DNA of 64,000 nucleotides, from NCBI RefSeq assembly GCF_025526975.1, contig NW_026515669.1, positions 1,488,001 through 1,552,000 on the forward strand, given 5' to 3'. Of the stretch, positions 3,316-26,093 are shown piece by piece (position 1 is the stretch's first letter; every line of letters starts with the position of its first letter). The translations under genes were made by a program, and so were the position numbers. Under the pieces are notes generated by a model. That model saw nothing but the letters and a program-made list of their open reading frames with translations. It was not told the origin of the DNA and searched no databases. The stretch comes from Fimicolochytrium jonesii. Taxonomy: Eukaryota.

Positions 3316-4767
3316 TGTTTGAAACCCTGAGGCAGACGCTCGCTATGAACCTTGCAATTTGTGTATACAGCCGTCAAACGAAGCAGAGCCAAAACTCTAC
3401 TCTGCAAAGAATTGTGTGAATATTTGTGCAGCACCGTTATTGTCGTTCATCAGACCCATCATGCGCATCTGAACGCTTTGCGCGCTTCCCAATGACATCG
3501 CTTTCCATCTATTTATTTACGGGCCTTCGATTTCAAGAATGACGAACTTGTATCACATCTCTTTGCTGGGACCATGGGGAGCGTTGCGCGGCCAACGGGT
3601 CCTGGCCTGTTATGATGTTGTAGTATGGAGATCGAGCCTAAAAATGCAAACACATATGTTTTCAGTCAACGGAAGATTGCAATGTGAGCGAATCATCAAG
3701 TCCGTACATTTGCGACATCATCTTGATGCTGGAACGTCTCAATCACAGCGCGGTGACCGGCTCTGTATCCACCGTATTGGTCTCCGTAGAGTTGTACTCC
3801 TGAGAATCGGCATTCTTAGTTTCGCGGAACTCTCTGAATGAATTGCACGCTGGCCTCTCCACCTGTAATGATATCATATCTGGCCTTGTTCTCTCCGTAA
3901 CCAACCGCTGCAGGTGATCCTGGACGGAAGGTTCCTTCCGGAGCTGCTCTAATCCCAGCAGCTTCAGCGTTTGTACTGCGACCAGCGTTACCTCCCTCAA
4001 CCTTCTGTGGCTGTGCCGGTCCCTTCTGAACTTCAGTCTTCTCAGTCGCAACAGTAGGCTTTCCCGACAAGTCGCCATTTGTCACGGTCAAATTCTGAGT
4101 GGGGTCCAAGGAAAGGCACCAGGAACATCTCCGTAAGCTTCAGTCCCAGCAGTGATACACGTGAACAAAGAATTCGCAGCAAGCTCACGTTTTTGAGGTG
4201 CCTACTAGGCAATTTGGGCAGCTGAACCTGCTTTCCGTTATGGTAGTTACTCATGCCCTTTACAATGACGCCCAACTTTCGATCCTTCTGCGCCCGAGAC
4301 GACAACACTGCGGCGGCTCCAGCTTTGCAGGCCTTATCGTGCATGAGGTGGGTGCCCGCCTTCTTCTCCAAAAGTGACGATGCCCCTGGTTTCCCCCGGG
4401 ACTGCAACTTGCCCGATAATGGATCCTTGTAGCTCTCCTTGTATTCGGTCATGAAGGGCTTGAAGATCGGGTGCCCGACGACGATACGATGCATTCGATT
4501 GACTTGCCGAGAATGTGATTCTTGAGTGCTTCTAAATGTGATACCGTATCTTCCGTTTTGGGGTCGCTTTTTGATATCTAGGTTCAACGTCCCAACTGAG
4601 GATATAATTGGTGAGCGTTTCCAATGCGATGCCCTATCTTCCGTTTGGAGTCGCTTTTTTGTAACGAGGTCCAGATTCCGAACGCTTTTCCAATGACAGG
4701 GAGGTCCAGGCGAACTCCGCTCTGTGTGGCTTGTGGTGTGTGCTTGTGGCTGGTACGTAGACATGTA

Positions 4768-5423
4768 CAGTCTGTTGCCATAAAGCAGGTCGCGCCTGAA
4801 ATTGAGTCACTGTCCTCGCGGCTGATCATGGTCCCGACTCCCTAATCACGGTATTAGGACCCCTAATCTAAATTTCGATCTGGGTTCCTAATCACGGTAT
4901 TGGGACCTCTAATCTAAACTAGATCTGGGTTCCTAATATTTTGTAAGTCCCCCGTTTGCGGCAATGACAGCGGCCATGCGTCCAGGCATTGAACCAATAA
5001 GTCTCTCTAAATGAACATCCATTGTCTGCCAGACATTCTGCACAATCCCGTTCAGCGTTGCAAAGTTCAGCAAGCTCGTCTGCTAAGGGTTGATACTTAA
5101 CTGGTCTGCTCCTGGGTTTTGTTGACTTGAATGCGTTGGGGTCGTCGCAATTTGCATTCTGGAACCTCCTCAGGGTTCTCTGAACGGTTCTGCAGGCACG
5201 GACTCTTGCTCTGCAATCTCTCTGGGTGTCTTGCCAGCGTTGCTCAACGCAACAATGGCTGCCCTCTTTTGGGGGGTGAGGGGTTTTGGCATTGTCGGTG
5301 TGGGAATGGGGAAGATGATCTCGCAATTGCGGCACTGTGAAGGGCTGTCCAGTGTGTCCGAAGCACCCGGCTACGGGCCGACTGTGCACGGCCAGGCGCG
5401 ACCTGCTTTATGGCAACAGACTG
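4768..5423 (-). mobile_element. Non-autonomous Tc1/mariner element (656 bp) with internally deleted transposase
   Basis: Perfect 31-bp TIRs (cagtctgttgccataaagcaggtcgcgcctg, 4768-4798 and 5393-5423) with TA TSD at 4766-67 and 5424-25. ATG 5292 gives the HTH MPKPLTPQKRAAIVALSNAGKTPREIAEQESVP/CRTVQRTLRRF, and the C-terminus LIGSMPGRMAAVIAANGGLTKY* ends at 4933. The DDE core is missing and there are frameshifts. Confidence 0.93.
4841..4937. repeat. Two ~46-bp direct repeats, each with a small hairpin, inside the Tc1 element
   Basis: cctaatcacggtatt(a/g)ggac...gatctgggtt at 4841-4886 and 4887-4931, plus a partial third copy. Confidence 0.85.
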
Positions 5424-5761
5424 TACATGTAAGCCAGGCCGGTGAATTCGACAGCGCGAACTCCGACAAGAGATTCTGGAAGTGGAAGTGGGGCTTTGAG
5501 CTTGACGGACTTTTTATCGAGCTTGTAGGCATTTTTCGGGCAAATCTATGGAAATGGGATGCAAAGGAAGAGAGGAAGGGCGTGGGGAAGGAGAATGCTT
5601 GTTCCTGAAGAATTTTGGAGGATAGGAGGGTTGACGGCAGGATACAAACCACTTGGTTAGAGTCTGTCCTTTAATGTGCAATGAGATATGGTTTAGCTAG
5701 ACGGTGATGTCAGGAAGGCTTAGAGAGTATATAGTTCGACTACTTATTCTTTTGGTATGTC

Positions 5762-5936
5762 TCGTTTTCCGATGATGATATTTAAATGGAAACTGCTCTG
5801 ATTGTGCCTGTGAGGACTACTTCTCCATGATTCTTCCTTAATACAAGTTGCCATCATCGGCGACGCCTCAGGCAGAGGTACAATGATGTGGATGGCAGAT
5901 AACCACCACGGAAAATGGGATGGGGTGAAATCTAGA
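5762..5936 (-). ncRNA. Candidate Fanzor omegaRNA scaffold
   Basis: Lies immediately 3' of the Fanzor stop. Hairpins at 5888-5909, 5866-5878, 5847-5864 and 5766-5792; perfect 9-bp complement between 5852-5860 and 5769-5777 (pseudoknot-capable). Confidence 0.5.
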
Positions 5937-8848
5937 CTACCGGTTACGGGAGAATGCGTCTGGTCTGCGGCCATCAATGCCAAACACCACCGAGCGCACA
6001 ATCGAGAGGAAATTCTTGGTGCTCAGGACGTCCCGATTGTGCACTCTCATCCGTAGTCGTAGTGGTTGTCTTCTTCCAGGAATCTCAAATGGCGTCCAGT
6101 CTTGGTGATATATTCGGGGTTGGGGCAACCCACCAATCCATGGACGTATTCCATTCTTCCCTTTCTAGCTTGCCACAGCCGAGATGACAGCCGGCGTCGG
6201 ATGTTTTTCTTCACACGCCCGTGGCAGTCTGGGCACACGGAAGACGTTCGATACTCATCTAGCAAGTAGCATGGGATGCTGTTTCTTGCAAAGAGTGTGC
6301 GGAATCTGATTTCCATGAAGATGAGTTAGCATATTAAAATACATAAAAAACAATGATGGTCACTCACCCCTTGGTCTTTGATTACTCCTGAAAGCGCATG
6401 GTTTTTCCAGCGTCGCTCCAATCACCCAAGATGACCGCAAAATGCTTTCCATACAGGCGTCGCATGTTCTTGATGAGCTTGCTCTCAGACTTTTGCCGCA
6501 GTGAGAACGCCTTGAATCTGCGAGCCACGTGAATCTCATCCTGGTAAAACTCATCCAGGGCGGGATCTGGGATATGGATGGATGTCAGCCCATGTGTTAC
6601 CAAAGTTGAAAATCAAAGTTGAAGTGGAACATCATACCCGCATATTCGTAATCCACGATGAACGCTGAGACTGCCTCGATGTTCATGCTCTTGTGCGATG
6701 GAATATGTGATTCCATCTCAGCGATGCCGGCATTGATCTTTCGCTCTGTCATGTCTCTTTGAAAGTACCGAGACTTTGTCTCGACCGCCCGTTGATTGGA
6801 TGTGTATCTGATAAATGCATTGTGAGGACGCCGCAGCGGAATGTCGAACGAAGGGGATGGTGGGGACGGAGGTGGGGACAGCGGCGACAGCGGCGACAGC
6901 GGGGACGGCGGGATAGCGGGGACGGCGGGATAGTGGGGACGACGGGATAGCGGGGACGGCGGGATAGCGGGGACGGTGGGATAGCGGGGACGGCGGGATA
7001 GCGGGGACGGCGGGATAGCGGGGACGGCGGGATAGCGGGGACAGCAGGGCAGTAGTAATCAGCTGAAACTTACCGAAATGGCCGCTCCTTGTTGATGTCT
7101 CGACAGAACAAGAGGTCACGCTTGCCCGGATCAATGCTGACGATGTTTGGAGCCTCCCGTAGTTCGGCGATGTGGTGCTCAAAATACAGCTGCTTGACTT
7201 CTTCCTGCATTTGGGCTTTGCTGCGCTTCCGGGCGCGATGGCCGTACTTGAGCCCTGGCTTCTTGAAGTGGATGGTAGCGGAATACCCGTTTGTGCTGAT
7301 TGACCCATCAAATTTGAGACCAAGCTTCTTTCGATCCTTGAAGACCTTGTCCTGCAATCCGTCATTCAGCGAGGTGAGGTGATTGAAATAAGCGCAGAGG
7401 GATAGAGACTTACATTCACATTGAGAAACTGCCCCCACAGCTCCTGCTTGCGTTGATCGGTGAGTTTCCCCACGCGATGGCGGCTCAAGGCCAGGATATG
7501 AGTGGCTAGGATCATCGTGTCGATCCGAACAGATGACTGGATTCGAGATTTGCGCAGCGGGATAGCTGAAAACAGCCGCATTCTACGGCGCTCAAAGAGG
7601 CGCGAGAGCTCACAATAGGCACCTGTGATGAGGCAGGTGCGGACCATGATTAGACAAAGAGGAAGCCATGCGGGGGGGGGGGGGGGGGGCGGAAATATAC
7701 TAACTCACCTAAATATGGCATTGCGTCCACCGCAAGGCTGTATGCAAGCGGTTCATCCTGGGGAGGAAACAGAGCCCATAACTCGTCGAGGATGGTCCGC
7801 TCAAGTCGTGTGAGGCGTGCAAGCTCCTCTTCGGTTGGAAACTCTTCAAATGTCGCATACTTTGTAAACTGACGGACACGCTGATAATAGCGTCACCGCT
7901 GCGCTCTCCGGAGATGCCGTTCCACTTGCTTCAAACCAAGCCTTTCATTGACGTAGCGCAGAAACATTTGCATGAAATGCTCTTGTACGTTAACTTTGAG
8001 GTTTGTGAAGATGCTCATAGCCGTGTACGCTGCGGTCTGTTGGCAATATCGCATGCGGATGGGGGCGAATCCGTGAACATCACAGTACTTTTGAACCCGT
8101 GGACGCAACTCTTGCGCGATGACTGGATTGCCGTTGTAGCCTGGATTGTTGAGCAGCTCAAACATCACACTGATGTGCTTGTCGGTGATGTCCGGGAAAT
8201 CGTGTAGAGGATGATCAGCTGTGGTGGGGTGGGCAGATGTAGCAGTCAGGACATTGTTTTATGGGAAATATACAGTATAGTGTACCTCAAAAACTGACCA
8301 AGGTAGTACTTGATAAAGAAGGTGGTGTGGCGCGCAAGGACGTGAACATCAGCGATGAACGTTGTTAGGCGCTCCCTTTGCACTTGATTGTGATTATGGA
8401 TTCTGTGAAGGGAAACCTTCGTGCTGGCATGCGTCTGCGGGCGGGGTCGTTGAGCTGGTGGTGGTGGCGGTGGTGGTGGTGGTGGCGGGGGCTCATACAC
8501 CAGGGATCCCGGTGTGCTGGGAAAAAGGAAAGGGATGGGGGCGGGGAGGTTCAACGGACGCTGCAGACCCCTGTCCACGGGCGAAAGCCCTCGCTCCTGG
8601 CGCTGCTGCCCGTCTTCATCGCCGGAACTCTCGCCAACCATGTCTGCAATTGCTTGGGGCAAGTGGCGACGGACAGAAGGTGGGAGCTCGAATCGCGGGG
8701 GCTGCAGTGGTGTCTGCACAGCGGTTGGCGGATTTATGGGCAGCCGCGGGGTAACCGGAGTAACCTTCCTCCTCTTCCGCCGTGGTGTGGTTGCTCCCGT
8801 AAAGAAGCCACCCCACAGGTGCCCCTGGAGCACCTGGTGTGATGACAT
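5937..8848 (-). pseudogene. Fanzor: Fanzor1 (eukaryotic TnpB-like RuvC RNA-guided endonuclease), 7 exons, ~761 codons, inactivated
   Basis: Exons 8848-8299, 8218-7709, 7622-7414, 7351-7074, 6807-6638, 6566-6368 and 6305-5937, all GT-AG with consistent phases. Motifs: FSAIPLRK...RIDT, ISTNGYS, RuvC-I VSIDPGKRDLL, FRYTSNQRAVETK, ILGDWS, LDEYRTSSVCPDC, GCPNPE(Y), HNRDVLSTKNF. Stops at 7893-95 (TGA) and 6382-84 (TAA); frameshift near 6110. Confidence 0.92.
6858..7045. repeat. G-rich ~18-bp minisatellite inside Fanzor intron 4 (6808-7073)
   Basis: Tandem gcggggacggcgggata(g)-like units; they explain the spurious repetitive ORF 6718..7365. Confidence 0.9.
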
Positions 8849-9120
8849 GATGGCTGTGCTGTGCCTTTTGCGTGCCTGCTAGAGATGAGGTGTTGCAGGT
8901 GATTGCCGTGATAGCTGTGTGTCAAGGAACTCACGTCAGTGCTGTGGTAATGAGGCTGAGAACGGTGAGGAATTGCGGTTGTTACCTGGTGGCGGTTGAA
9001 GGTGAAACCGGGGTTGCTTACTGCTCACAATTGCGTTGGGAAGGACGGGGGTTGGGAAGGAGGTTTGGTATGTAATTGGGGGCCATGATGAGGTGCAATC
9101 AAGAGCGTGAGGTGTGCGAA

Positions 9121-9159
9121 GAGTGAGGAAGAGTAGAGTGAGGAAGAGTAGAGTGAGGA
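9121..9159. repeat. 15-bp tandem repeat upstream of Fanzor
   Basis: gagtgaggaagagta x2.6. Confidence 0.8.
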
Positions 9160-9214
9160 TTGTTCTTTACACGCGTGTAAAGGACGTGGGGTAGCTTCCA
9201 GGGCAGCTAGCTGG

Positions 9215-9378
9215 GCAGCTACCTGGGCGAGTGACGGCGAGTGACGGCTATGGCAGCAGCTACCTGGGCGAGTGACGGCGAGTGACGGCTATGGCAGCAG
9301 CTACCTGGGCGAGTGACGGCGAGTGACGGCTATGGCAGCAGCTACCTGGGCGAGTGACGGCGAGTGACGGCTATGGCA
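9215..9378. repeat. Four perfect 41-bp tandem repeats at the putative 5' end of the Fanzor element
   Basis: gcagctacctgggcgagtgacggcgagtgacggctatggca x4, starting at 9215, 9256, 9297 and 9338. Confidence 0.95.
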
Positions 9379-9562
9379 GCAAACTACAGTATGTCAAGTT
9401 GGGTCCGCCATGGCCCTCTAACAGCAGACCGTTGCGAATATGATCATAGTCTAGAGCCAGCATTGCGCAAGTAAAAAGGAGTTTTAAAGGAGCAAAGAGC
9501 AGACAGGCAGTACAATGATATGCTGGTGACCGGTGCTTATATAGCAATTCACATCTATGAAG

Positions 9563-10212
9563 CTATGAAGGGAGACATTGCTCGTCCGTCGTATAACTAT
9601 GCCTGCCCTCCTTCCAAATCCCGTCGTTCTTACACCACTCGGAAGTGGCTTCGAAGCAAGGGTGTTCACCGCAAGACGAGTTGGCACAATGGGCCCAGTA
9701 GGAAGAGAAGATGTTGGAGCCTACATAGTTCTTATATTCATCCCGTTCGCCGATGTTCCACTGAACTATGTTGTCAAGGGAGGTTACTAGTGGTAAGGGC
9801 CCCTCCATCCCCTCATCCTGCATAAGCGCCCGTAAGGTGTCGTCGAGCGTCACGAATGAGTCGGTGATGAGGTCTCGTTCGGTTGCGTATGTCGTGAGGG
9901 CGGCCAAGGCTTCCCTCTCTGTGATGGTGCTATTGTGTGGTATACGGAGGAAGTCGCAGAACGCAGGTGACAAGAAACAAGGAGCGGCGGATAACGATGG
10001 GTGAGGATCCACTCGAAAAACACGTGGCGAAGAGGGGTTGGGTTGAGCCAGACTTCCATCAGTTCGATGCTGCTCATACGAACGCAGCGACGACTGATCA
10101 TTTGAGTAAAAAGTAAGTCGAATCGTCGTATTTTCGCCTTGAACGCCTGGCAACGGTGTGTTTGAAGGATGTTGATTCGAGTCTCAAAGGGGAGATCGGC
10201 GTAGCTGGTCAT
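9563..10212 (-). pseudogene. SWIB/MDM2-like domain ORF, possibly frameshifted from an F-box-like N-terminus
   Basis: LSPAFCDFLRIPHNSTITEREALAALTTYATERDLITDSFVTLDDTLRALM resembles the SWIB consensus. The overlapping frame 9850..10212 starts MTSYADLPFETRINIL (F-box-like). Confidence 0.5.
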
Positions 10213-10294
10213 CTTCGGATTCTTCTCAATGGCTGGAGGGTCAGCGGTTGCGTTGATATGCTAACCCCCCCCCCCCCTCCTATTGCGGGTACAG

Positions 10295-10851
10295 ATCGTG
10301 GAAAAAGCATGGGGATCTATCAACCACGAAAAAAGGATTCCGTCAGTGTGGAGAAGTGGCGCGCGTTACAAGCCAAGTTACCGAAGATCGAGGCGCATTA
10401 CATCTACTTCCTCAATAAGCTTTCCCCTTACCTCTTGTCTCGCATCAAAAAGCGGGCAAAGGAACTACGCGTGCCCAGCATTTCACAAGCGGAATTCGGC
10501 AACCTCGTTGCAGACGACTCCTTCGCCAGCAATATCACCGCCACATGGGACGACTTTGCCAATAAATTCCACCGCGATAACGACACATCGAAACTCACAT
10601 ATGGAATCTGGTTCCCGGTCTCGAACACAACGGGCAAGCTGAAAAGCAAAGCGGATGGATTTGCCTGTCATGGTGGAGTCTTTGTGAATGCAGACTATCG
10701 TGTATACGTGGACTTTGATGCGTGCGATGGCGTTGTCGAAATCGTTTGGCGAGGGCCTGAGGATGCACACGCAACCACGTCGTCCGTCAGAGGCCAAGAC
10801 TCGAATCGCCTCGGGACCTCCGTTCAAATCAACGAGAAGCTGGCAAAATGA
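10295..10851 (+). pseudogene. Tet/JBP-like 2OG-Fe(II) dioxygenase, 3' exon only
   Basis: FASNITATWDDFANKFHRDND (HxD), TYGIWFP, GGVF, VDFDACDGVVEIVWRG, AHATT (distal His) and RLGTSVQ (2OG-binding Arg). Branch site gctaac and a cag acceptor lie before 10295; no 5' exon is visible. The frame stays open past the TGA to ~10953. Confidence 0.75.
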
Positions 10852-11080
10852 GTCGAACGGTTGTTGCGGGAGGAGGGTGTCGTTGCTGCCGGGCGCGTCC
10901 TTGGGCTTGCTGAGTCTTTAGAACGATTGCAGACATTAGAACGATTGCGCTGACCCATTCTGATTTGTACCGAATACCATAAACTCTACATATATAAAGT
11001 ATGTGCGTTTTGAGAACGGTACGCCGGTCGTAGTGTTTTTACACCTACAAGTCGTATTTTTTACAGCAAAATCCGGGCCT

Positions 11081-11326
11081 GGGGAACCGACGACCTAAAA
11101 GGTCCGAACGTTTCCCCGACAAGCAAATGATGTGAAAACAGATAGATCAGAACAGTTGATCAACGGCCAAATTGGCCCGAATGTGCGGAGAAAAGGGAGT
11201 AAAAGCGATTGAGTGAAGTGAGCACGACGACCTAAAAGGTCCGAGCGGTGCGCAGAAAAGGGAGGTGAGAGTGCACAGTTCGAATAGGAAAAAATAGAAC
11301 CGACGACCTAAAAGGTCCGAGCGGTT
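11081..11326. repeat. Three dispersed copies of a 20-bp hairpin core with variable closing stems
   Basis: cgacgacctaaaaggtccga at 11088-11107, 11225-11244 and 11301-11320. Confidence 0.9.
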
Positions 11327-11399
11327 GTCTCTTGTCGACGCTTACTCGATGGTGTTTGGTGTTATTTTGTGTTTGGTGTATTAGTTTGGTGTTTGGTTG

Positions 11400-14304
11400 T
11401 CAAGCGGTGGCACGAGTTGCCGTTGCGGTTGCAGAACTGGTAGGATGGTTCCGCATTCTTTGCACTTCTTGCCATGTTGGGTGTGGCAGGTAATCTGACA
11501 TCGTCCGTCCGGATGGCGGTTCCGGCAGAACAGTACATGTGGAGATCACCCTTTTCTTGGTTTCGCCCCTGATCATGCCTGAGTGGTACAAGACAACTCC
11601 CTGCGGTTTCTGTGGGATGAAGCTATTTTTGTCAATGACGACGTCCTGTTGGGAGGGACGGCAGAAATGGTGGTCGGTAAGTGTGCAGAGATGACGCTGA
11701 ATCATTAAGATCTCACTGTAGTCTTCAAGTGGACAGTGGTGAAGAACGTGTCAGTGTCCGGTTTGACCGCTAGTTGCGTCTCAAAGCCTCTCGCAAGTGC
11801 CTGGAGAATGAGCTTGCGCTTGTTCGGCGTCGTGATTGATGTGCCATCATCGGTGTTGAGGCCGGCCTCCTTACAGGCTATCAACAACCGACCACTCAAG
11901 TGCTCTGCGAGTTTTAATGATGGCATGTTGATGAACCCCGATCGGCACCACGTCTGTCGAAGTGGGACATGGACTTTCCTATACGCAGCCAACACGTTAA
12001 GGAGTGCGAAGTGATCGCTCGTGTCGTCGATGAACTTCCGGCCTTGAGGGCCCGAGCCCCATACTTGCAGGGCTTCACCACGCTCAAGCGGATCATTTGG
12101 CCATTGCAGGACCGAGGCGCGCTGTTGCAATATTGCCGCCAGATCGCACATATGTCGTCCCACGCCCTTATCACAAGCGTGCCAAAGAGCAGTCGCCAGT
12201 TGAGGGTCAATGGGGAGTCTTGCCACCACAGCACCGACACGAGTGAGTTCCCCTGTCTCCTTCAGGACACCGATGCGTGTCAAAACATCGTTCCCGAGTT
12301 TCCATGATTCCGGCACTGTGCAGTGACAGGTATAAGGACAATTCCCTGGAAGGACCCAGATCTGTAAGAATGCTATACAACTCACCAGGTTGCTTGAACC
12401 AGGGCCAAGGAGCATCCCCCGCAACCCCGCGGTATCCGAATCCTCTGACGCAAAGGACAGCCGATTCGAGTCGCACTTGTTTGACCTCCGCTAAAGATAT
12501 GTCAAGGAAGGGGCCAGAGATGTTATGAATGGGCGGAGCCGATGGAAATAGAGGCGACTTGTGGTGCAGGTTGTTGACAGGTAATGGTATTCAGACCGGA
12601 ACAAGAACTAGAACAAGACTAGGAAGAACTGGTGTTGATCTGCTGGGGGATCAGGAAGTGGGGAGCTCAGGGGAGGCGGCTATTTATGTTTTTCTGGGAA
12701 GGCTGGGGAAGCGTGGGGAAGCAGAAGGGTACGGAATGAGAGGGAAGCCAAGAGAAGCGCCAAGGGTGGGGAAGCATAGAAACAGAAGACTGGGGATGGG
12801 GTGGCTACGCTGAGGCTGTGGGCGGGTACGTGGGGAAGTATGGAGAAGGGTTTGTAAGCGCCGAGTGTTGGGAGGTGTGGCTACGTGCGGCTGCGTGGAG
12901 AAATGAAGGCAGTGGCAGGTGTGGGGTAGCGCAGCTGCGTGCGGCTGCGAGGTTTGGCAGATGTCAGGTTTTGACAGGGAATTGACATTGACTGACTGTT
13001 GGGATGCTGTCATGAGGTAAGCGCATGGTATGGACGCGGCGTCCATAACAAGAGAAGTCTGCCATGCTGAAGCATGGCCAGTAGGCACCGGGACCAGTGC
13101 GACCAGTTCTTCCCGCGCGTTGTTCTGCATCCGCCCTGCTGATGAACTTGGTGCTAAGTTCGTGCAGGCCAGAGCGCGGGTCGAATACCATGATCTTGGC
13201 GGCACCGCAGTCAACCACATGGTCGATGCCCCCAACTGTGAGGGAGGTTTCCGCCACGTTTGTCGCCAAGACAACCTTCCTCTTTCCAGGCTGTGCTCCG
13301 ATCACCCTTTGCTGCACTTCCGTAGGCATCCCGGCGTATAACTTGCCAAGTTTTACGTTTTCAGCGGGGTGGCCAGAGTATTCCATCCAGTTATCGAGAT
13401 CGGCCTCCATGCGGTCAATGTCCTCACGTCCAGGTAGGAACACGAGGATACCTCCAGGAAGAGCTTGCGGTGGCCTAGGCTCGCCTTCCTGGTCGTTATC
13501 TTTGAACTTGAGTATTCTGATAACGTTTGCCAGGGCCCGGGCGTAATACGAGTCCTTCTCCGTCTTTTTCTTCGACAGGTCAAGACCCTCGTTATCATAG
13601 AGCCTCGCGATATTGTGGGGATCATGCCGTATCCGAACCACAGTTGCGCCGAAGAAATAGTCTTTGAACATGTCCAGTGCCCTCTGCATCGTCGCGCTCA
13701 TTATCACGGTGATGAGAGGGTCTCCTCTATCCTTGCGCTTAGCGATTGCGAGTCTCAGTGTAGTCATGAGCATGTCCACGTGCAGGGTGCGGACATGGGC
13801 CTCATCAACCACAATTGCGGCATATTTCGAAAGGAGTGGGTCATTCTGGGCCTCGATGATGAGGATTTGCTCCGTAGCGAAGCAGAGCTTGGTGGTGCCC
13901 TTGGTGTAAGCGGTGTCAGGGCCCGTCTTGTAGCCCACCTCCTGGCCAACTGTCATGTCCATCACTTCTGTGACTCGATTGGCTGTCGCGATGGCCGCGA
14001 CCACACGGGGTTGGCTGCACCCCGTAACCCTGCTTTCGCCCTTTTTAACGACACCGGCATCCCAGAGATACATAAGGATGAAATAGACGAACGCTGTCGT
14101 CTTTCCACTGCCCGTCGGACCCATCACTAGGAATTGAGTGATTCCCGCAGCCAGGTGCGCCAATAACTCATCCCTGTGATCGTAGGCTGGCAAGGTTTCC
14201 CAGCCCGATCGGGCCCGTGTGCGGTGGGTTGGGGTGTGCGGTTTCCCGTTGAATATGTTGGGCTCTTTCCTCTCCAGCATTTGCTGAGCTTCTGCGGTTG
14301 ACAT
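11400..14304 (-). pseudogene. Divergent Prp43/DHX15-like DEAH-box RNA helicase (RecA1, RecA2, HA2, OB), interrupted by a solo LTR
   Basis: GPTGSGKTT, SQPRVVAA, DEAH, SAT, TNVAETSLT, QRAGRTGRTGPG; Prp43-like N-terminus NIFNGKPHT...LPAY; HA2 GELTRVGAVVARLPIDPQLA. Introns at 12316-12385 and ~11646-11715. The frame is restored on removing 12521-13050 plus one TSD. Confidence 0.88.
12521..13050. mobile_element. Solo LTR (530 bp) of an LTR retrotransposon
   Basis: Termini tgttatg...cataaca (TG..CA inverted ends); 5-bp TSD agaga at 12516-20 and 13051-55; no internal coding sequence. Confidence 0.9.
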
Positions 14305-15786
14305 GCTGCTGCTGTTGCCTGGTAGTTGGTGTTGTTGTTATCGCTTGGTGGTTGGTGTGGTATGTGATTGGGGTTGGCGCTGGAGTTGAAGGTGATGTGC
14401 AGGAGTAGTAGGTAAGTGATGAGAGACCTCACAGTGAGAGATTTTCCCTTTGGGGGTGGTATAGGTAGGCTGTTGTGCGAAGCCGTCGCGTTTTTGAATA
14501 TGTGAATCACGAAATATGTGATTCACAAAGTTATGCGCAAGCGCCTCCCATCCGTCCCCAAGCGCGTATACACCACAGTTGTTGGATCGACGATTCCAAC
14601 GCGTTTCAGGAAAGCTACGAGGTGGATGGATGACGGATACGAAGGCACGTACTATACGTATAATATACTATACTCTCCCCCTATCACAACTAGGAGCTCG
14701 CATCTTTCGGCACAACCCCCTTCTGCACCCCCTTCTGCACCCCCTTCTGCACCTCCTCCTACGCCGACATCTCTGCACATCTCTGTTATCTGGTTGGTGG
14801 AATTAAGTACACGAGATTCGTGGGAGGCCATGATTGAAGGAAATTTGTACATTCTTAAAAAGAGGGAATGGGTGGTTTGAGGGGACGGAGGGTTTCGGGC
14901 TTCCGATGGACAAGTGAGCAAGAAGCGCTACAATGTGGTATGAGCGACTTGGTGTGGTATAGTTGGTGGGGTACATTCGCAACGACGATGCTGGTGATGG
15001 TATTTCGCAGGCATAATAGAAAGGCGGTAGCGTAGTAGCTGCATACGACCACAGACTTAAAATGGGCCAGGGAAAGACGACGCAGAACTCACGACGAGAT
15101 CTTGAACTCTGCGGCAAGCAACACATGATCAGAGACGACGTTCGGATTTGGCATGGTATTTCACACACTCCAATCGCGTTCTCATCTTCTCCTCGCCGGT
15201 TGCATTATTGATTGACGGCGCTGAGAATCCGAAACGTTCCGTCTTCTCCTTGTTCCGACAAAGATATAATCGCAATTCTCCTGCACCGCATCATGCCAGG
15301 TGGTAAAGTACGTTGTGGGGTCAATGTAAGGGTGGTAGACGGAGGTGGGGCGGAAAGGACGGCGGACAACTTGAAGGAGCGGCTGGGAGGTGTCATTATT
15401 GTGTCGCCAGGGATTCAGCCGGTGGTGTGCCGGATCAAACGGTTGTAGGAAGGGATAGAACACCAGCCCAGCCAGCGGGCGTCGTCGTCTTCCTCATCCG
15501 ATGATTCTGACGTGGAGTGTTTGGAAGGTGGGCGTCCACATCCGTTGCATCTCCGTCGGTGGACGTCCCGTCGTCACCGTTAGGAGCTCGAGAGCACGCC
15601 GTATCATGTGACATAATGCAGACGACTTCTCATCCGTGTCAGGGTGTCATGGAATGTCTGCCCGCGTTGAATTCACGAACCCGTTTTCTATATTTAGATT
15701 TTTCATCCTTTTTGAATCGTTTTGCACGCTGTAACACGCTTTTTATGTAGTACTGTAAAATGACACCAAAATCTATGATTTCAACC

Positions 15787-21300: not shown

Positions 21301-23506
21301 TTGAGCACTTTGCGAGTACGTACGGGACGTATGTTACAAATATGTTCGTAGCGATTACTAGTATCCCTCACTTCAGTCTCGTATTGTAGGAGGAAACGCG
21401 TGCGCGCAGGATATGCCTCTCGCAATCAATCCTAGTTCGGCAAATGTGGAGCGCTGGGAAGGCGGCCAGCAACAAAACTTTTCAGACTGCAAGAACGAGC
21501 TTGGCTGCCCAAGTCGATCGTCACACCCAAGTGGTGCTTCCGGTTTTATTTACCCAGGCCAACTCTTATCCAACCATCGTCACCGTTGTCCGCAACACTG
21601 AGGCAAGCTGGGGATCGGCGCGAGAGGTATTGGGGTTAAACCCGTACGAACTTGCCCGTCTCACGAAGACCAGCCTCGAACGCATTCTTCAATATGACTA
21701 CACGCGTTTCGTCGACACAGCAACGATTGACCAGGATATAGAGATCCGATTCTGGTTCGATAATACCCTCGATGTATGAGCACGTCGTGTTCACCTTCTC
21801 CTTCTACTTCGACGTGAGGACTCACAACAGCCCATTTATAGATGTGCGATGCCTTTCACATGTTTACTGGCGATATGTACAAGGATTACAAAGCTCGCTC
21901 TTCCCAACAGACTATGATAATCGTTGGGTTGTTGGTGGTTGTGGTTGTGGTTCTCGTGGTTGCGGCCGTCCTTTTTTGGATGTCACTACACCACACCAAG
22001 GTTGAAGGCAGAAAATGGTTGAAAGTACTAAAGGGGATTCCGCGTTCTCATTTGCGCCATCTTACAATGGACCTTGAGGAAGAGATCGAAGAGCTTTTCG
22101 AACTCGAGGGCTTGGAAGATCGGGCGCAGACGGCGGCCACAAGGCATATGGAAACTCGTTTGTCCCATTGGCTGCTTCAAAGATACGCATCCGGATATGT
22201 AGTCTCAATCTTTGGATTGGCCGCATTGGCTGTGTGTCTGTTCGCTCCGCCATTGCTGTCGAGCTCGCAGATGGATGAGGTTCGTGATATGTGCGCCTCC
22301 TGTCTTATGACATGACTGACGAGCGCTTTGTCGCAGACGGCAACCTTGATTCTCGCTAGTAACCCGCGAAGATTTTACGGACAAGTAAGATTTTTGTGTA
22401 GCATTTCCATCAGCCCCGCAAAGCAATAACTGAATACATTTCTGCAGTCCATCAATTACCTAAGCCAGGTACCTCACTCTCTACTCCTGATCCAGTCTTC
22501 AGATGTTGACGCTTTGACGTAATGCCCCAATAGGAACTTGCAGCAAGCGACGCCAACACGTGGACGCCTTGGAAGTGAGAGCATTCGTCCCAATGCAGTC
22601 TTCTCGCGTTCTTTACTTGACTGCATTTGATTCACGTAGGGCACAAATCGAAGTTGAGAAACGGATTCAAACGTTGCGGGTATGTGTCCAGATTTTGCAG
22701 TCCTTCACATGCGCCGGCGGGGCATAGGTTGACAAGTCGGGTGCCGTACGGTCTAGACGTTGCACGAGATATGCATCAAAGGAGATGAGAATACCCCGTC
22801 GATATACGTTTTTCCTCAGCTCGACCCATATCTTCGGTGAGCAGACGAGTTCTCAGTGACAAGCGAGTCGCAGGGTATGGGATGACGGATGAATCTCTGA
22901 CGCCCTTACGATTCAGCACGGGCGGCATCTGTTTGAGATCGACTGGTTGTGATAATCGGCCGTATAATGCTAGTTACGGTTTTACCAGGGATCTTGTAAT
23001 GTCCGGAGCGACTTACCTCATCGATGTGCTGCTCATGGGGGTAGGAACTCGGGGGTGCGGAACTTGAATCTTGGACGGTGTAGTGACGGTAACCGCTTGT
23101 ACACATTCTACCACAGGCGCGAAAGTACTTGGACACCAAAGACTTCACGGCGACCAATCCGGAACTGCGATTGGTCATGGCCATCGAGCCGGACATTGCG
23201 GACGGATTGGAAACCGTTGACGGACTTCTGCTCTCCATTGCTCGGGACGCTGCCGCCAAGTATCAAGCCATCGGACATGTGTTGTTCGCATTGACGTCGA
23301 TATATTACGTCTGCTTCTGCGGCTACTTCCTGCTCCTCGTCATGAGGAACATCCAGGAGCAGATCAAGATGATGGTGCATGTTATTTTCTGGGTGCCACC
23401 CGAGATTGTCAGTGATGCTCCCAGGCTGCAGAACTTCATCGCAGCAGGAGGCATGGTTCACGTACCGGTCGAAAAACTTAAGGAAACCCCGGAGAAGAAG
23501 GCCTGA
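18343..23506 (+). CDS. TmcB/TmcC-like multi-pass membrane protein with TPR segments, many exons
   Basis: N-terminal TM helices; TPR-like AYKKLIERFPSSKQILRLYAKYLLTVENNAELSAQLLSQAEDIE; PPFDVRFRIF; further C-terminal TM segments; numerous GT-AG introns. Confidence 0.65.
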
Positions 23507-24960: not shown

Positions 24961-26093
24961 GACTTACCTTGCAGCCCGGCCAGACTCTCCAATGTGTAAG
25001 GTAGGGCATTGCGGACGGATTGGAAACCGTTGACGGACTTCTGCTCTACATTGCTCGGGACGCCTACCCGGCGCCGCCGGAGAGTGCCGCCGGAGCGCCA
25101 TCGGCGCGACTGCGGGCGAGTATGATACGAGACCTTGGCACGGGTAGGAAGGAATGGTTAGTTTCTCCCAATCGCTGACACGTGGATCTCCAGCGCTCTG
25201 CATGCATATATAGCGGCGAACCGACGGGAAGGAACTTCGGGGTCTTTCGAGATGCCCTGTTCTGTGGATTCCGCCGGAGATATCAGCTCGACAACACCAA
25301 CGTCAAGCTGAGCGAGAAAATGCTTTGTGAGACCTATTCATATCTGTCACGGCCTTTTCCTGCTCTTTTTCTGCTCCTAGCCATGGCCTTCTCTCAAGTG
25401 CGTTCTTCTCCCTGACTCGTACCGGCCATGATTGACCACCCCGAAGATGACTTTTTTTGATGCTGTCGTGAAGCGGAATGGCAAGATAAAAGAGTCTCGA
25501 AGGCATACAAACAATAGTAGTAAGTAGCGGAAGATTCCTTTTCCTCCTTTGTTCTTTTCACTCAGGGTCTTCGCTTGTCGATGATATCTTCTACAACTCA
25601 TTCAGGTTGGCCACGTACTTCGATAGGTTCAGGAGGTTGTTCAACAGTACGTTGTGCAAAATGAAGACTTTACAGTCTTGATTCAGATGAGCGGTGGGTC
25701 CGGGTTGATATGTCTTCGCTCCGGTGTGCATGCATCGTGTGCTGGCTTTTCATTCCATTCACACCTTGAAGCTACCGTATAAGATGGATCTGAGCTACGG
25801 TTCACAAACGTCAGTAAAAACTTGTGGACGCCGTTGGGCGGCGAACGCGGCCTAATCTGCGTCCTTATGGGTCGACCCTACTTGAAATTGGATGAAGGTA
25901 CGATAGTTGCCATACGATAGTTGCCATAATGTGATTTATGTAGTGGTCGAAGCAGAGAAGCAGCGGGTGCGTAATCCCCAAGTGAAAAAGCTATAAACAC
26001 AGTTTGGAATGTCCTAAAATAAATCCTTCAAACTCATCCCAGCCCAGCTCATCCCTAACATCGTCGCGGGGAACTTCAGATGTTCTTGTCGCA

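What the first reader, a model, noticed from the sequence alone, without database searches (positions are those of the whole stretch)
5937..8848. Intron-rich Fanzor1 RNA-guided nuclease gene hidden across seven exons
Seen in sequence: six canonical GT-AG introns (62-266 bp) splice phase-consistently into 2285 nt, one base short of 762 codons. The product carries RuvC-I D (SIDPG), GDW, the E-x-x-T-S-x-x-C glutamate just before a CxxC...C zinc finger, and RuvC-III NRD. Known: this motif order characterises Fanzor, the eukaryotic TnpB/OMEGA relatives guided by an omegaRNA. This copy is dead: TGA at 7893, TAA at 6382, a frameshift near 6110, and Tyr in place of the last finger Cys. Inference: the few lesions suggest recent inactivation, so intact siblings may exist and the ancestral enzyme is reconstructable.
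Basis: partly seen in the sequence, partly recalled or inferred. Interest (0 to 1): 0.88.

Follow-up and report, generated by a model that had tools for sequence, protein, structure and literature searches.

The report
Broken intron-rich chytrid Fanzor with guide-RNA
This is a broken, six-intron copy of a Fanzor gene (a known type of eukaryotic RNA-guided DNA cutter) from a chytrid gene family already listed in a published survey, with one full-length sibling on record and a likely 75-base guide-RNA scaffold just downstream, so it adds an untested relative of the genome editor SpuFz1 and not a new kind of system.

Summary
Seven minus-strand exons (8848-5937) and six GT-AG introns of 62-266 nt give 2285 nt, with stops at codons 292 and 634, a one-base loss near 6105 and Tyr for the last finger Cys. 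Read through, the product is 90% identical to a full-length open Fimicolochytrium jonesii model (XP_052925929.1) and 45% to SpuFz1, with no indel at any junction. D497, E656 and D731 map onto SpuFz1's catalytic triad. The sibling's predicted fold matches SpuFz1 (E 3e-50). I hold 48 sibling models on 27 contigs; only 2 cover the core without gaps. Added here: a candidate omegaRNA scaffold at 5916-5842 (75 nt, starts 20 nt after the stop, ends in TA, 14 of its first 19 nt as in SpuFz1's), changed TAM-contact residues, and introns absent from five environmental relatives. No left inverted repeat was found, so how the element moves is open. Yoon et al. 2023 list 33 F. jonesii Fanzor hits in a supplement, and intron-rich Fanzors are published. 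Verdict: new member of a known kind.

The parts
8299..8848 (-). Exon 1 (aa 1-183): about 128-aa proline-rich extension with NLS-like PRRKRRK (aa 22-28), then the start of the folded core
   Evidence: pLDDT under 50 for nearly all of residues 1-128 of sibling P0030; the SpuFz1 match starts at residue 129
8219..8298 (-). Intron 1, 80 nt, phase 1
   Evidence: 9 of 10 sibling models spanning it have no indel
7709..8218 (-). Exon 2 (REC region, TAM-contact helix); premature TGA at 7895-7893
7623..7708 (-). Intron 2, 86 nt, phase 1
   Evidence: 15 of 15 siblings no indel
7414..7622 (-). Exon 3
7352..7413 (-). Intron 3, 62 nt, phase 0
   Evidence: 23 of 25 siblings no indel; second-best pair against SpuFz1 alone
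7074..7351 (-). Exon 4 (WED to RuvC-I, DPG with D497 at 7132-7130)
   Evidence: (8gkh, E 2.2e-16)
6808..7073 (-). Intron 4, 266 nt, phase 2, holding a 17-nt tandem array (6875-7042, 9.8 copies)
   Evidence: 30 of 32 siblings no indel
6638..6807 (-). Exon 5
6567..6637 (-). Intron 5, 71 nt, phase 1
   Evidence: 30 of 31 siblings no indel; two sibling models read into the same intron sequence
6368..6566 (-). Exon 6 (GDW); premature TAA at 6384-6382
6306..6367 (-). Intron 6, 62 nt, phase 2
   Evidence: 28 of 29 siblings no indel
5937..6305 (-). Exon 7: E656 (6256-6254), CxxC, Tyr for Cys704 (6112-6110), one-base frameshift near 6104-6106, D731 (6032-6030), stop
5842..5916 (-). Candidate 75-nt omegaRNA scaffold; its last TA is the predicted right end of the element
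   Evidence: inferred from homology, expression not seen
5827..5841 (-). Predicted guide segment of about 15 nt read from flanking DNA
   Evidence: by analogy with SpuFz1; best other match in the window 12 of 15
9215..9381 (.). 41-nt tandem array (4.1 copies, 100% match) upstream of the gene; whether it belongs to the element is unknown
4768..5423 (-). Neighbouring 656-nt element with perfect 31-nt TIRs and TA on both sides; likely an internally deleted Tc1-type transposon, probably a separate element

Best explanation
The locus is a broken copy (two stops, a frameshift, a lost zinc ligand) of a multi-copy six-intron Fanzor1 gene of the SpuFz1 clade, whose intact members are predicted to be RNA-guided DNA nucleases that likely help a non-autonomous DNA element persist. 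Shown: the gene structure, the lesions, the homology, the catalytic triad, a full-length sibling model and the sibling's fold. Inferred: the spliced 761-aa protein enters the nucleus through its N-terminal basic patch. It binds a 75-nt scaffold transcribed from the element's right end plus about 15 nt of flanking DNA as guide, and cuts DNA that has a TAM followed by the guide, which is the empty insertion site. Repair from the occupied copy would then restore or spread the element. Copies kept their introns, so copying went through DNA. For the transposase supplied in trans I favour a TA-targeting cut-and-paste enzyme as proposed for Spu-1, at about even odds. This copy cannot make the nuclease (stop at codon 292, before RuvC) but might still donate a guide RNA to intact copies.
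For: P0030 against SpuFz1: E 4.6e-149 over residues 129-759. Predicted P0030 model (mean pLDDT 79.4): the top seven Foldseek hits are SpuFz1, PpFz1 and GtFz1 (E 3e-50 to 3.6e-18), then Cas12f at 1.7e-5. SpuFz1 D383/E541/D606 map to D497/E656/D731. In the quick tree the window copy nests among nine F. jonesii models (SH-aLRT 100), sister to a Gaertneriomyces protein (99). 48 sibling models lie on 27 distinct contig lengths. Four sibling models read into sequence like window introns 2, 4 and 5, so siblings carry those introns. Scaffold: SpuFz1's starts 21 nt after the stop, is 75 nt long and ends in TA (supplement rows); the window's starts 20 nt after the stop and has TA at nt 74-75. By eye, 14 of the first 19 nt agree, including U5, C6, C7, U16, U18 and C19, which the structure paper names as contacts. 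The first hairpin is predicted with pair probabilities 0.63-0.86, and two of its outer four pairs differ from SpuFz1's on both sides (by eye). L002/L003 (one element, 41% protein identity) has the same 5' motif 14 nt after its stop and TTGTA at the end of a 76-nt stretch.
Against: No RNA data, so splicing and omegaRNA expression are unobserved. No left inverted repeat matches the predicted right end in the 64 kb (best other hit 21 of 32), nor in about 6 kb upstream in L002, whereas Spu-1 has 30-33-nt IRs. Pfam found no transposase in the 70 nearby ORFs scanned. The scaffold's folding z-score is only -1.33, and a SpuFz1-like second stem closing on the terminal UA lies 3.2 kcal/mol above the minimum with pair probability near 0. 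G20 of SpuFz1 is U here, with G at 21. The search motif was written after seeing both sequences. Only 3 of 58 loci with a C-terminal match show the 5' motif near the stop; L005 and L008 (42-46% identity) lack it. Only 2 of 48 models cover the core without gaps, and both carry private changes. The one intron-containing Fanzor1 tested by Jiang et al. did not cut.
Confidence: 0.8

Rival explanations
1. The gene and RNA are as described, but the element has no terminal inverted repeats and spreads by another DNA route (Helitron- or Crypton-like, or nuclease-driven gene conversion alone). This rival concerns the mobility step only.
For: No left IR in the window or in L002; a tandem array upstream; one sibling model is fused to a tyrosine-recombinase-like segment (P0011, Phage_integrase E 5.6e-4, below cut-off); Fanzor1s on Helitrons and Cryptons are published.
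Against: The predicted end is TA at exactly the Spu-1 position; a relative, L024, sits between 35-nt inverted repeats that begin TACAGT; the left end of this one copy may simply be lost; the recombinase fusion is 1 of 48 models.
Confidence: 0.35
2. The family is a decaying or nuclease-dead remnant: it binds an RNA but no longer cuts, and no copy is active.
For: 46 of 48 models are partial or gapped over the core; P0030 differs from the family at 9 fixed columns, 6 of them also conserved in SpuFz1 or Gaertneriomyces, including T659; the SpuFz1 TAM contacts R96 and N133 are G and A; intron-containing CrFNuc showed no cleavage.
Against: All three catalytic residues and four cysteines are kept in P0030, P0031 and many partial models; copies are about 90% alike with short branches; partial models may be annotation artefacts.
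Confidence: 0.15
3. The neighbouring 656-nt TIR element is the family's 'ghost' or transposase partner, and forms one unit with the Fanzor gene.
For: It lies about 420 nt downstream, has TA flanks, and its TIR shares an 8-nt run with the predicted Fanzor end; Spu-1 ghosts are about 550 nt with 30-nt IRs.
Against: 2.3% of random 36-mers from the window score as well; it lacks the scaffold's 5' motif (one match in the whole window); it carries transposase-like remnants and has both of its own ends.
Confidence: 0.08
4. The lesions are assembly errors and this copy is intact in the organism.
For: A one-base loss is a common long-read error (general knowledge); no reads could be laid.
Against: Three of the four lesions are substitutions in columns that are R/Q, S and C in siblings, and most siblings are broken at other places.
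Confidence: 0.03

Closest known systems
SpuFz1 / Spu-1 element of Spizellomyces punctatus (PDB 8gkh, 9ceu-9cez; PMC10432273, PMC3627910)
   Same: 45% identity (278 of 616 aligned residues), same fold, same catalytic triad and four finger cysteines, Q129/Q130/Y345 kept, and a 75-nt downstream region with the same 5' motif, offset and terminal TA.
   Different: Six introns against a single ORF; an extra N-terminal stretch of about 128 aa; DPG instead of DPN; R96 to G, N133 to A and R291 variable (R 10, Q 7, H 6), so the TAM is probably not CATA; no IR pair found; this copy is broken.
Fimicolochytrium jonesii Fanzor HMM hits in Yoon et al. 2023, Table S2 (PMC10711439)
   Same: The same family: 33 rows, 32 of which I saw, all partial models with the family's C-terminal sequence.
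   Different: Catalogue rows only. The full-length model KAI8821362 and three other long models were not found in that file, and I saw no gene structure, RNA or activity described.
Gaertneriomyces sp. JEL0708 protein HDU85_005947 (P0107)
   Same: Sister branch (SH-aLRT 99), 55% identity.
   Different: 637 aa, no N-terminal extension, DPN; gene structure not available to me.
Intron-containing Fanzor1 of Chlamydomonas (CRe-1/2/3, CrFNuc; PMC3627910, PMC10530073)
   Same: Multi-exon, multi-copy Fanzor1 with a 3' non-coding RNA.
   Different: Carried by Helitron2, another lineage; no cleavage was detected.

Membership tests
Fanzor | RuvC1 DPG motif | tested here: met
   SIDPG, D497; definition read in PMC10711439 section 23
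Fanzor | Alternative RuvC2 glutamate six residues upstream of the zinc finger | tested here: met
   E656, six residues, then CxxC
Fanzor | Zinc finger between RuvC2 and RuvC3, then RuvC3 Asp | tested here: met
   CxxC, C699 and D731 present; the fourth Cys is Tyr in this copy but Cys in 32 of 32 siblings
Fanzor | Eukaryotic genomic origin | tested here: met
   spliceosomal introns; nucleoporin and other intron-split host genes in the window; closest relatives are named chytrid proteins
Fanzor1 (SpuFz1 clade) | Large REC/RuvC form, grouping with Fanzor1 by sequence and fold | tested here: met
   the tree (quick method) held no Fanzor2 or TnpB outgroup
Fanzor/OMEGA | omegaRNA encoded at the element's right end | tested here: inconclusive
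   position, length and motif match SpuFz1; fold not significant alone; no Rfam match; no RNA data
Fanzor/OMEGA | TAM- and guide-dependent dsDNA cleavage | not testable with these tools
   needs a bench assay
Spu-1-type TIR element | Paired 30-33-nt IRs with TA duplication around the gene | tested here: not met
Spu-1 ghost (for 4768-5423) | omegaRNA-like right end without the gene | tested here: not met
   5' motif absent; TIR similarity weak

The most novel reading that the evidence does not exclude
An active, intron-rich Fanzor1 family without terminal inverted repeats or its own transposase has spread to dozens of sites in one chytrid genome through DNA, helped by its own guide-directed cutting. 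It recognises a relaxed TAM because two SpuFz1 base-reading residues are lost, and its broken copies serve as a guide-RNA library for the few intact enzymes.
Probability: 0.15. Interest if true: 0.55.

Novelty: new member of a known kind. Interest (0 to 1): 0.3.

Why it matters
SpuFz1 is being engineered as a compact genome editor and is limited to a CATA TAM (PMC10432273, PMC13434818). A natural full-length relative at about 45% identity, with changed TAM-contact residues and a scaffold of the same length, is a ready candidate for another TAM. It also tests a point left open by Jiang et al., whose one intron-containing Fanzor did not cut: do intron-rich Fanzors stay nucleases? Six introns that are absent from SpuFz1 and from five environmental relatives give a compact case of likely intron gain in a mobile gene. 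None of this is a new kind of system, and the copy in the window is dead.

Tried and rejected
No whole genome is held, so sibling DNA, element ends and copy number by tblastn could not be examined. No sequencing run was listed, which is no evidence either way. Scans with P0030 found no locus in metagenome or viral contigs, and an exact 22-nt scaffold pattern found none in viral contigs. Pfam has no passing family for the exons, for P0030 or for SpuFz1 itself in the copy held; the best was Cas12f1-like_TNB at E 0.033 on exon 7. Rfam gave nothing for 4500-9600. Earlier findings of this scan: none in three look-ups. A link between the Fanzor and the nearby TET-like ORF: one F. jonesii relative was found within the lengths searched, and its accession is not next to any Fanzor accession I hold; not supported. 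Ghost reading of 4768-5423: rejected. Searches used the wrong frame of that element and are void; the right frame gave no PDB or passing Pfam hit. The careful tree did not finish and the quick tree was used. My greedy intron finder is crude: its calls at about aa 477 in L005 and about aa 649 in L001 may be artefacts. CpG/CpA ratios of the gene (0.91/1.21) show no marked depletion against the rest of the window.

Full report
Observation. The gene lies on the minus strand from ATG 8848 to TAG 5939-5937. Six GT..AG introns of 80, 86, 62, 266, 71 and 62 nt leave 2285 nt of exon; four introns have a CTRAY branch-like site 22-31 nt before the acceptor. The lesions are TGA 7895-7893, TAA 6384-6382, a one-base loss best placed at 6104-6106 and Tyr at a column that is Cys in 32 of 32 siblings.

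Are the introns real? Two tests. First, the read-through product aligns to SpuFz1 (P0108, whose D383, N385, E541 and D606 match the paper's numbering) and to the Gaertneriomyces protein with no indel across any of the six junctions. SPu-1 is a single ORF (PMC3627910 passages). Second, sibling gene models spanning each junction agree without indel in 9 of 10, 15 of 15, 23 of 25, 30 of 32, 30 of 31 and 28 of 29 cases. These models are predictions, so they are weaker evidence than reads, and no run was listed.

Identity. Exons 7 and 4 hit SpuFz1 at E 1.8e-18 and 2.2e-16. A search with exon 4 returned 21 proteins, all named Fimicolochytrium jonesii, 83-98% identical; the window is therefore likely from this chytrid or a very close relative. 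Cluster look-ups raised the set to 48 models on 27 distinct contig lengths (one unrelated 51-aa member dropped; some models may be halves of one locus). P0030 (XP_052925929.1, 761 aa) is full length and open and 90% identical to the window product (680 of 754). It matches SpuFz1 at E 4.6e-149. Its predicted structure matches SpuFz1, PpFz1 and GtFz1 ahead of all Cas12f and TnpB chains. Both Fanzor fingerprints of Yoon et al. (DPG; glutamate six residues before the finger; section 23) are met. A quick tree of 37 proteins puts the window copy inside the F. jonesii group, sister to Gaertneriomyces (careful search unfinished, no TnpB or Fanzor2 outgroup).

State of the family. Only P0030 and P0031 cover core residues 130-757 without gaps. 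The window copy differs from family-fixed columns at 10 positions, P0030 at 9, P0031 at 18, P0039 at 9 and P0003 at 8. So the copies are about equally diverged, most are broken or only partly modelled, and an open frame does not prove activity: P0030 has Lys at the conserved Thr659.

Guide RNA. The supplement of Saito et al. prints SpuFz1's scaffold: 75 nt, starting 21 nt after the stop and ending in TA. In the window a matching 5' motif starts 20 nt after the stop and nt 74-75 are TA (5916-5842). By eye 14 of the first 19 nt are identical, including six of the nucleotides named as contacts in the structure section; G17 and G20 differ. The 7-nt core occurs 10 times in 128 kb of both strands, so a chance hit within 10 nt of the expected place is about 0.002 (my arithmetic). 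The longer motif matches once in the window (0.06 expected) but was written after the comparison. The first hairpin (nt 8-29) is well predicted, and two of its four outer pairs differ from SpuFz1's on both sides. L002/L003 has the motif 14 nt after its stop and ends a 76-nt stretch in TTGTA; L010 has a similar first hairpin. Against: z is -1.33, a SpuFz1-like second stem is not favoured, 55 of 58 loci lack the motif near the stop (most are distant, some are truncated), and Rfam has no match. I put the scaffold at about 75% likely.

Element ends. No inverted copy of the predicted right end exists in the window, nor upstream in L002. Spu-1 has 30-33-nt IRs and no transposase between them; the relative L024 lies between 35-nt IRs. 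The nearby 656-nt element has perfect 31-nt TIRs and TA flanks, a weak HTH (HTH_23, E 0.0045) and a C-terminal peptide that I recall as Tc1-like (no database support). It lacks the scaffold motif and is probably separate. Four sibling models read into sequence like introns 2, 4 and 5, so copying kept the introns and went through DNA; the transposase is unidentified.

Differences from SpuFz1. There is a low-confidence 128-aa N-terminal extension with PRRKRRK. TAM contacts Q129, Q130 and Y345 are kept, R96 is G, N133 is A and R291 varies, so the TAM likely differs. Five environmental relatives show none of the six introns over the parts they cover; three have an intron at about aa 273 instead and a fourth near there (crude method). 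Lineage-specific gain is the simplest reading.

Prior knowledge. Intron capture and NLS gain in Fanzors are published (PMC10530073, passages and section 10). PMC10711439 Table S2 has 33 F. jonesii rows, 32 of which I saw, and none of four long models I searched by accession. The readable supplements of PMC10432273 and PMC10530073 gave no F. jonesii hit; two PDF supplements of PMC10432273 could not be read and may bear on this. Full-text searches for Fanzor + Spizellomycetales gave 0 papers and Fanzor + jonesii gave 1, a giant-virus preprint seen as a listing only; its published version has no 'Fanzor' in the main text. PMC11423790, PMC13434818 and PMC3627910 were seen as passages.

Verdict. 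A real, well-read finding: a dead copy of a catalogued but, as far as these searches show, undescribed Fanzor1 family, with a natural full-length sibling and a credible omegaRNA. New member of a known kind; interest 0.3.

Noticed in passing
window 4768-5423: 656-nt element with perfect 31-nt TIRs, TA on both sides within a palindromic flank, an HTH start and a Tc1-like C-terminus (recalled motif), DDE region missing; a 46-nt duplication at 4841-4937.
   Followed up: partly
window 10117-10851 (+): TET-like 2OG-Fe(II) oxygenase ORF (PF20515, E 5e-43); one F. jonesii relative is 97% identical over 101 aa.
   Followed up: partly
window 9566-10183 (-): ORF with weak SWIB/MDM2 look-alikes, mostly from clusters of large DNA viruses (score 0.79, a lead only).
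   Followed up: partly
window 11705-14337 (-): DEAH/HrpA-like helicase in long open stretches next to the TET- and SWIB-like ORFs; the 4-19 kb region looks like an island of mobile or acquired genes between host genes.
   Followed up: no
window 6306-8298: All six intron lengths leave remainder 2 when divided by 3; retention of any one would shift the frame. May be chance.
   Followed up: no
window 6875-7042: 17-nt tandem array in intron 4; sibling model P0006 reads through a much shorter intron 4, so the array likely expanded in this copy.
   Followed up: partly
window 9215-9381: 41-nt tandem array, 4.1 perfect copies, about 370 nt upstream of the start codon.
   Followed up: no
window 11079-11336: Three spaced copies of a repeat of about 16-25 nt (spacing 137 and 76 nt).
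   Followed up: no
L024 3734-7701: Fanzor1 relative inside 35-nt inverted repeats that begin TACAGT; I noticed no transposase among the ORFs listed between them, by eye only.
   Followed up: partly
protein P0011: F. jonesii model joining a tyrosine-recombinase-like segment to a Fanzor fragment; may be nested elements.
   Followed up: partly
window 23191-23250 and 25004-25063: 60-nt direct repeat, 97% identical.
   Followed up: no
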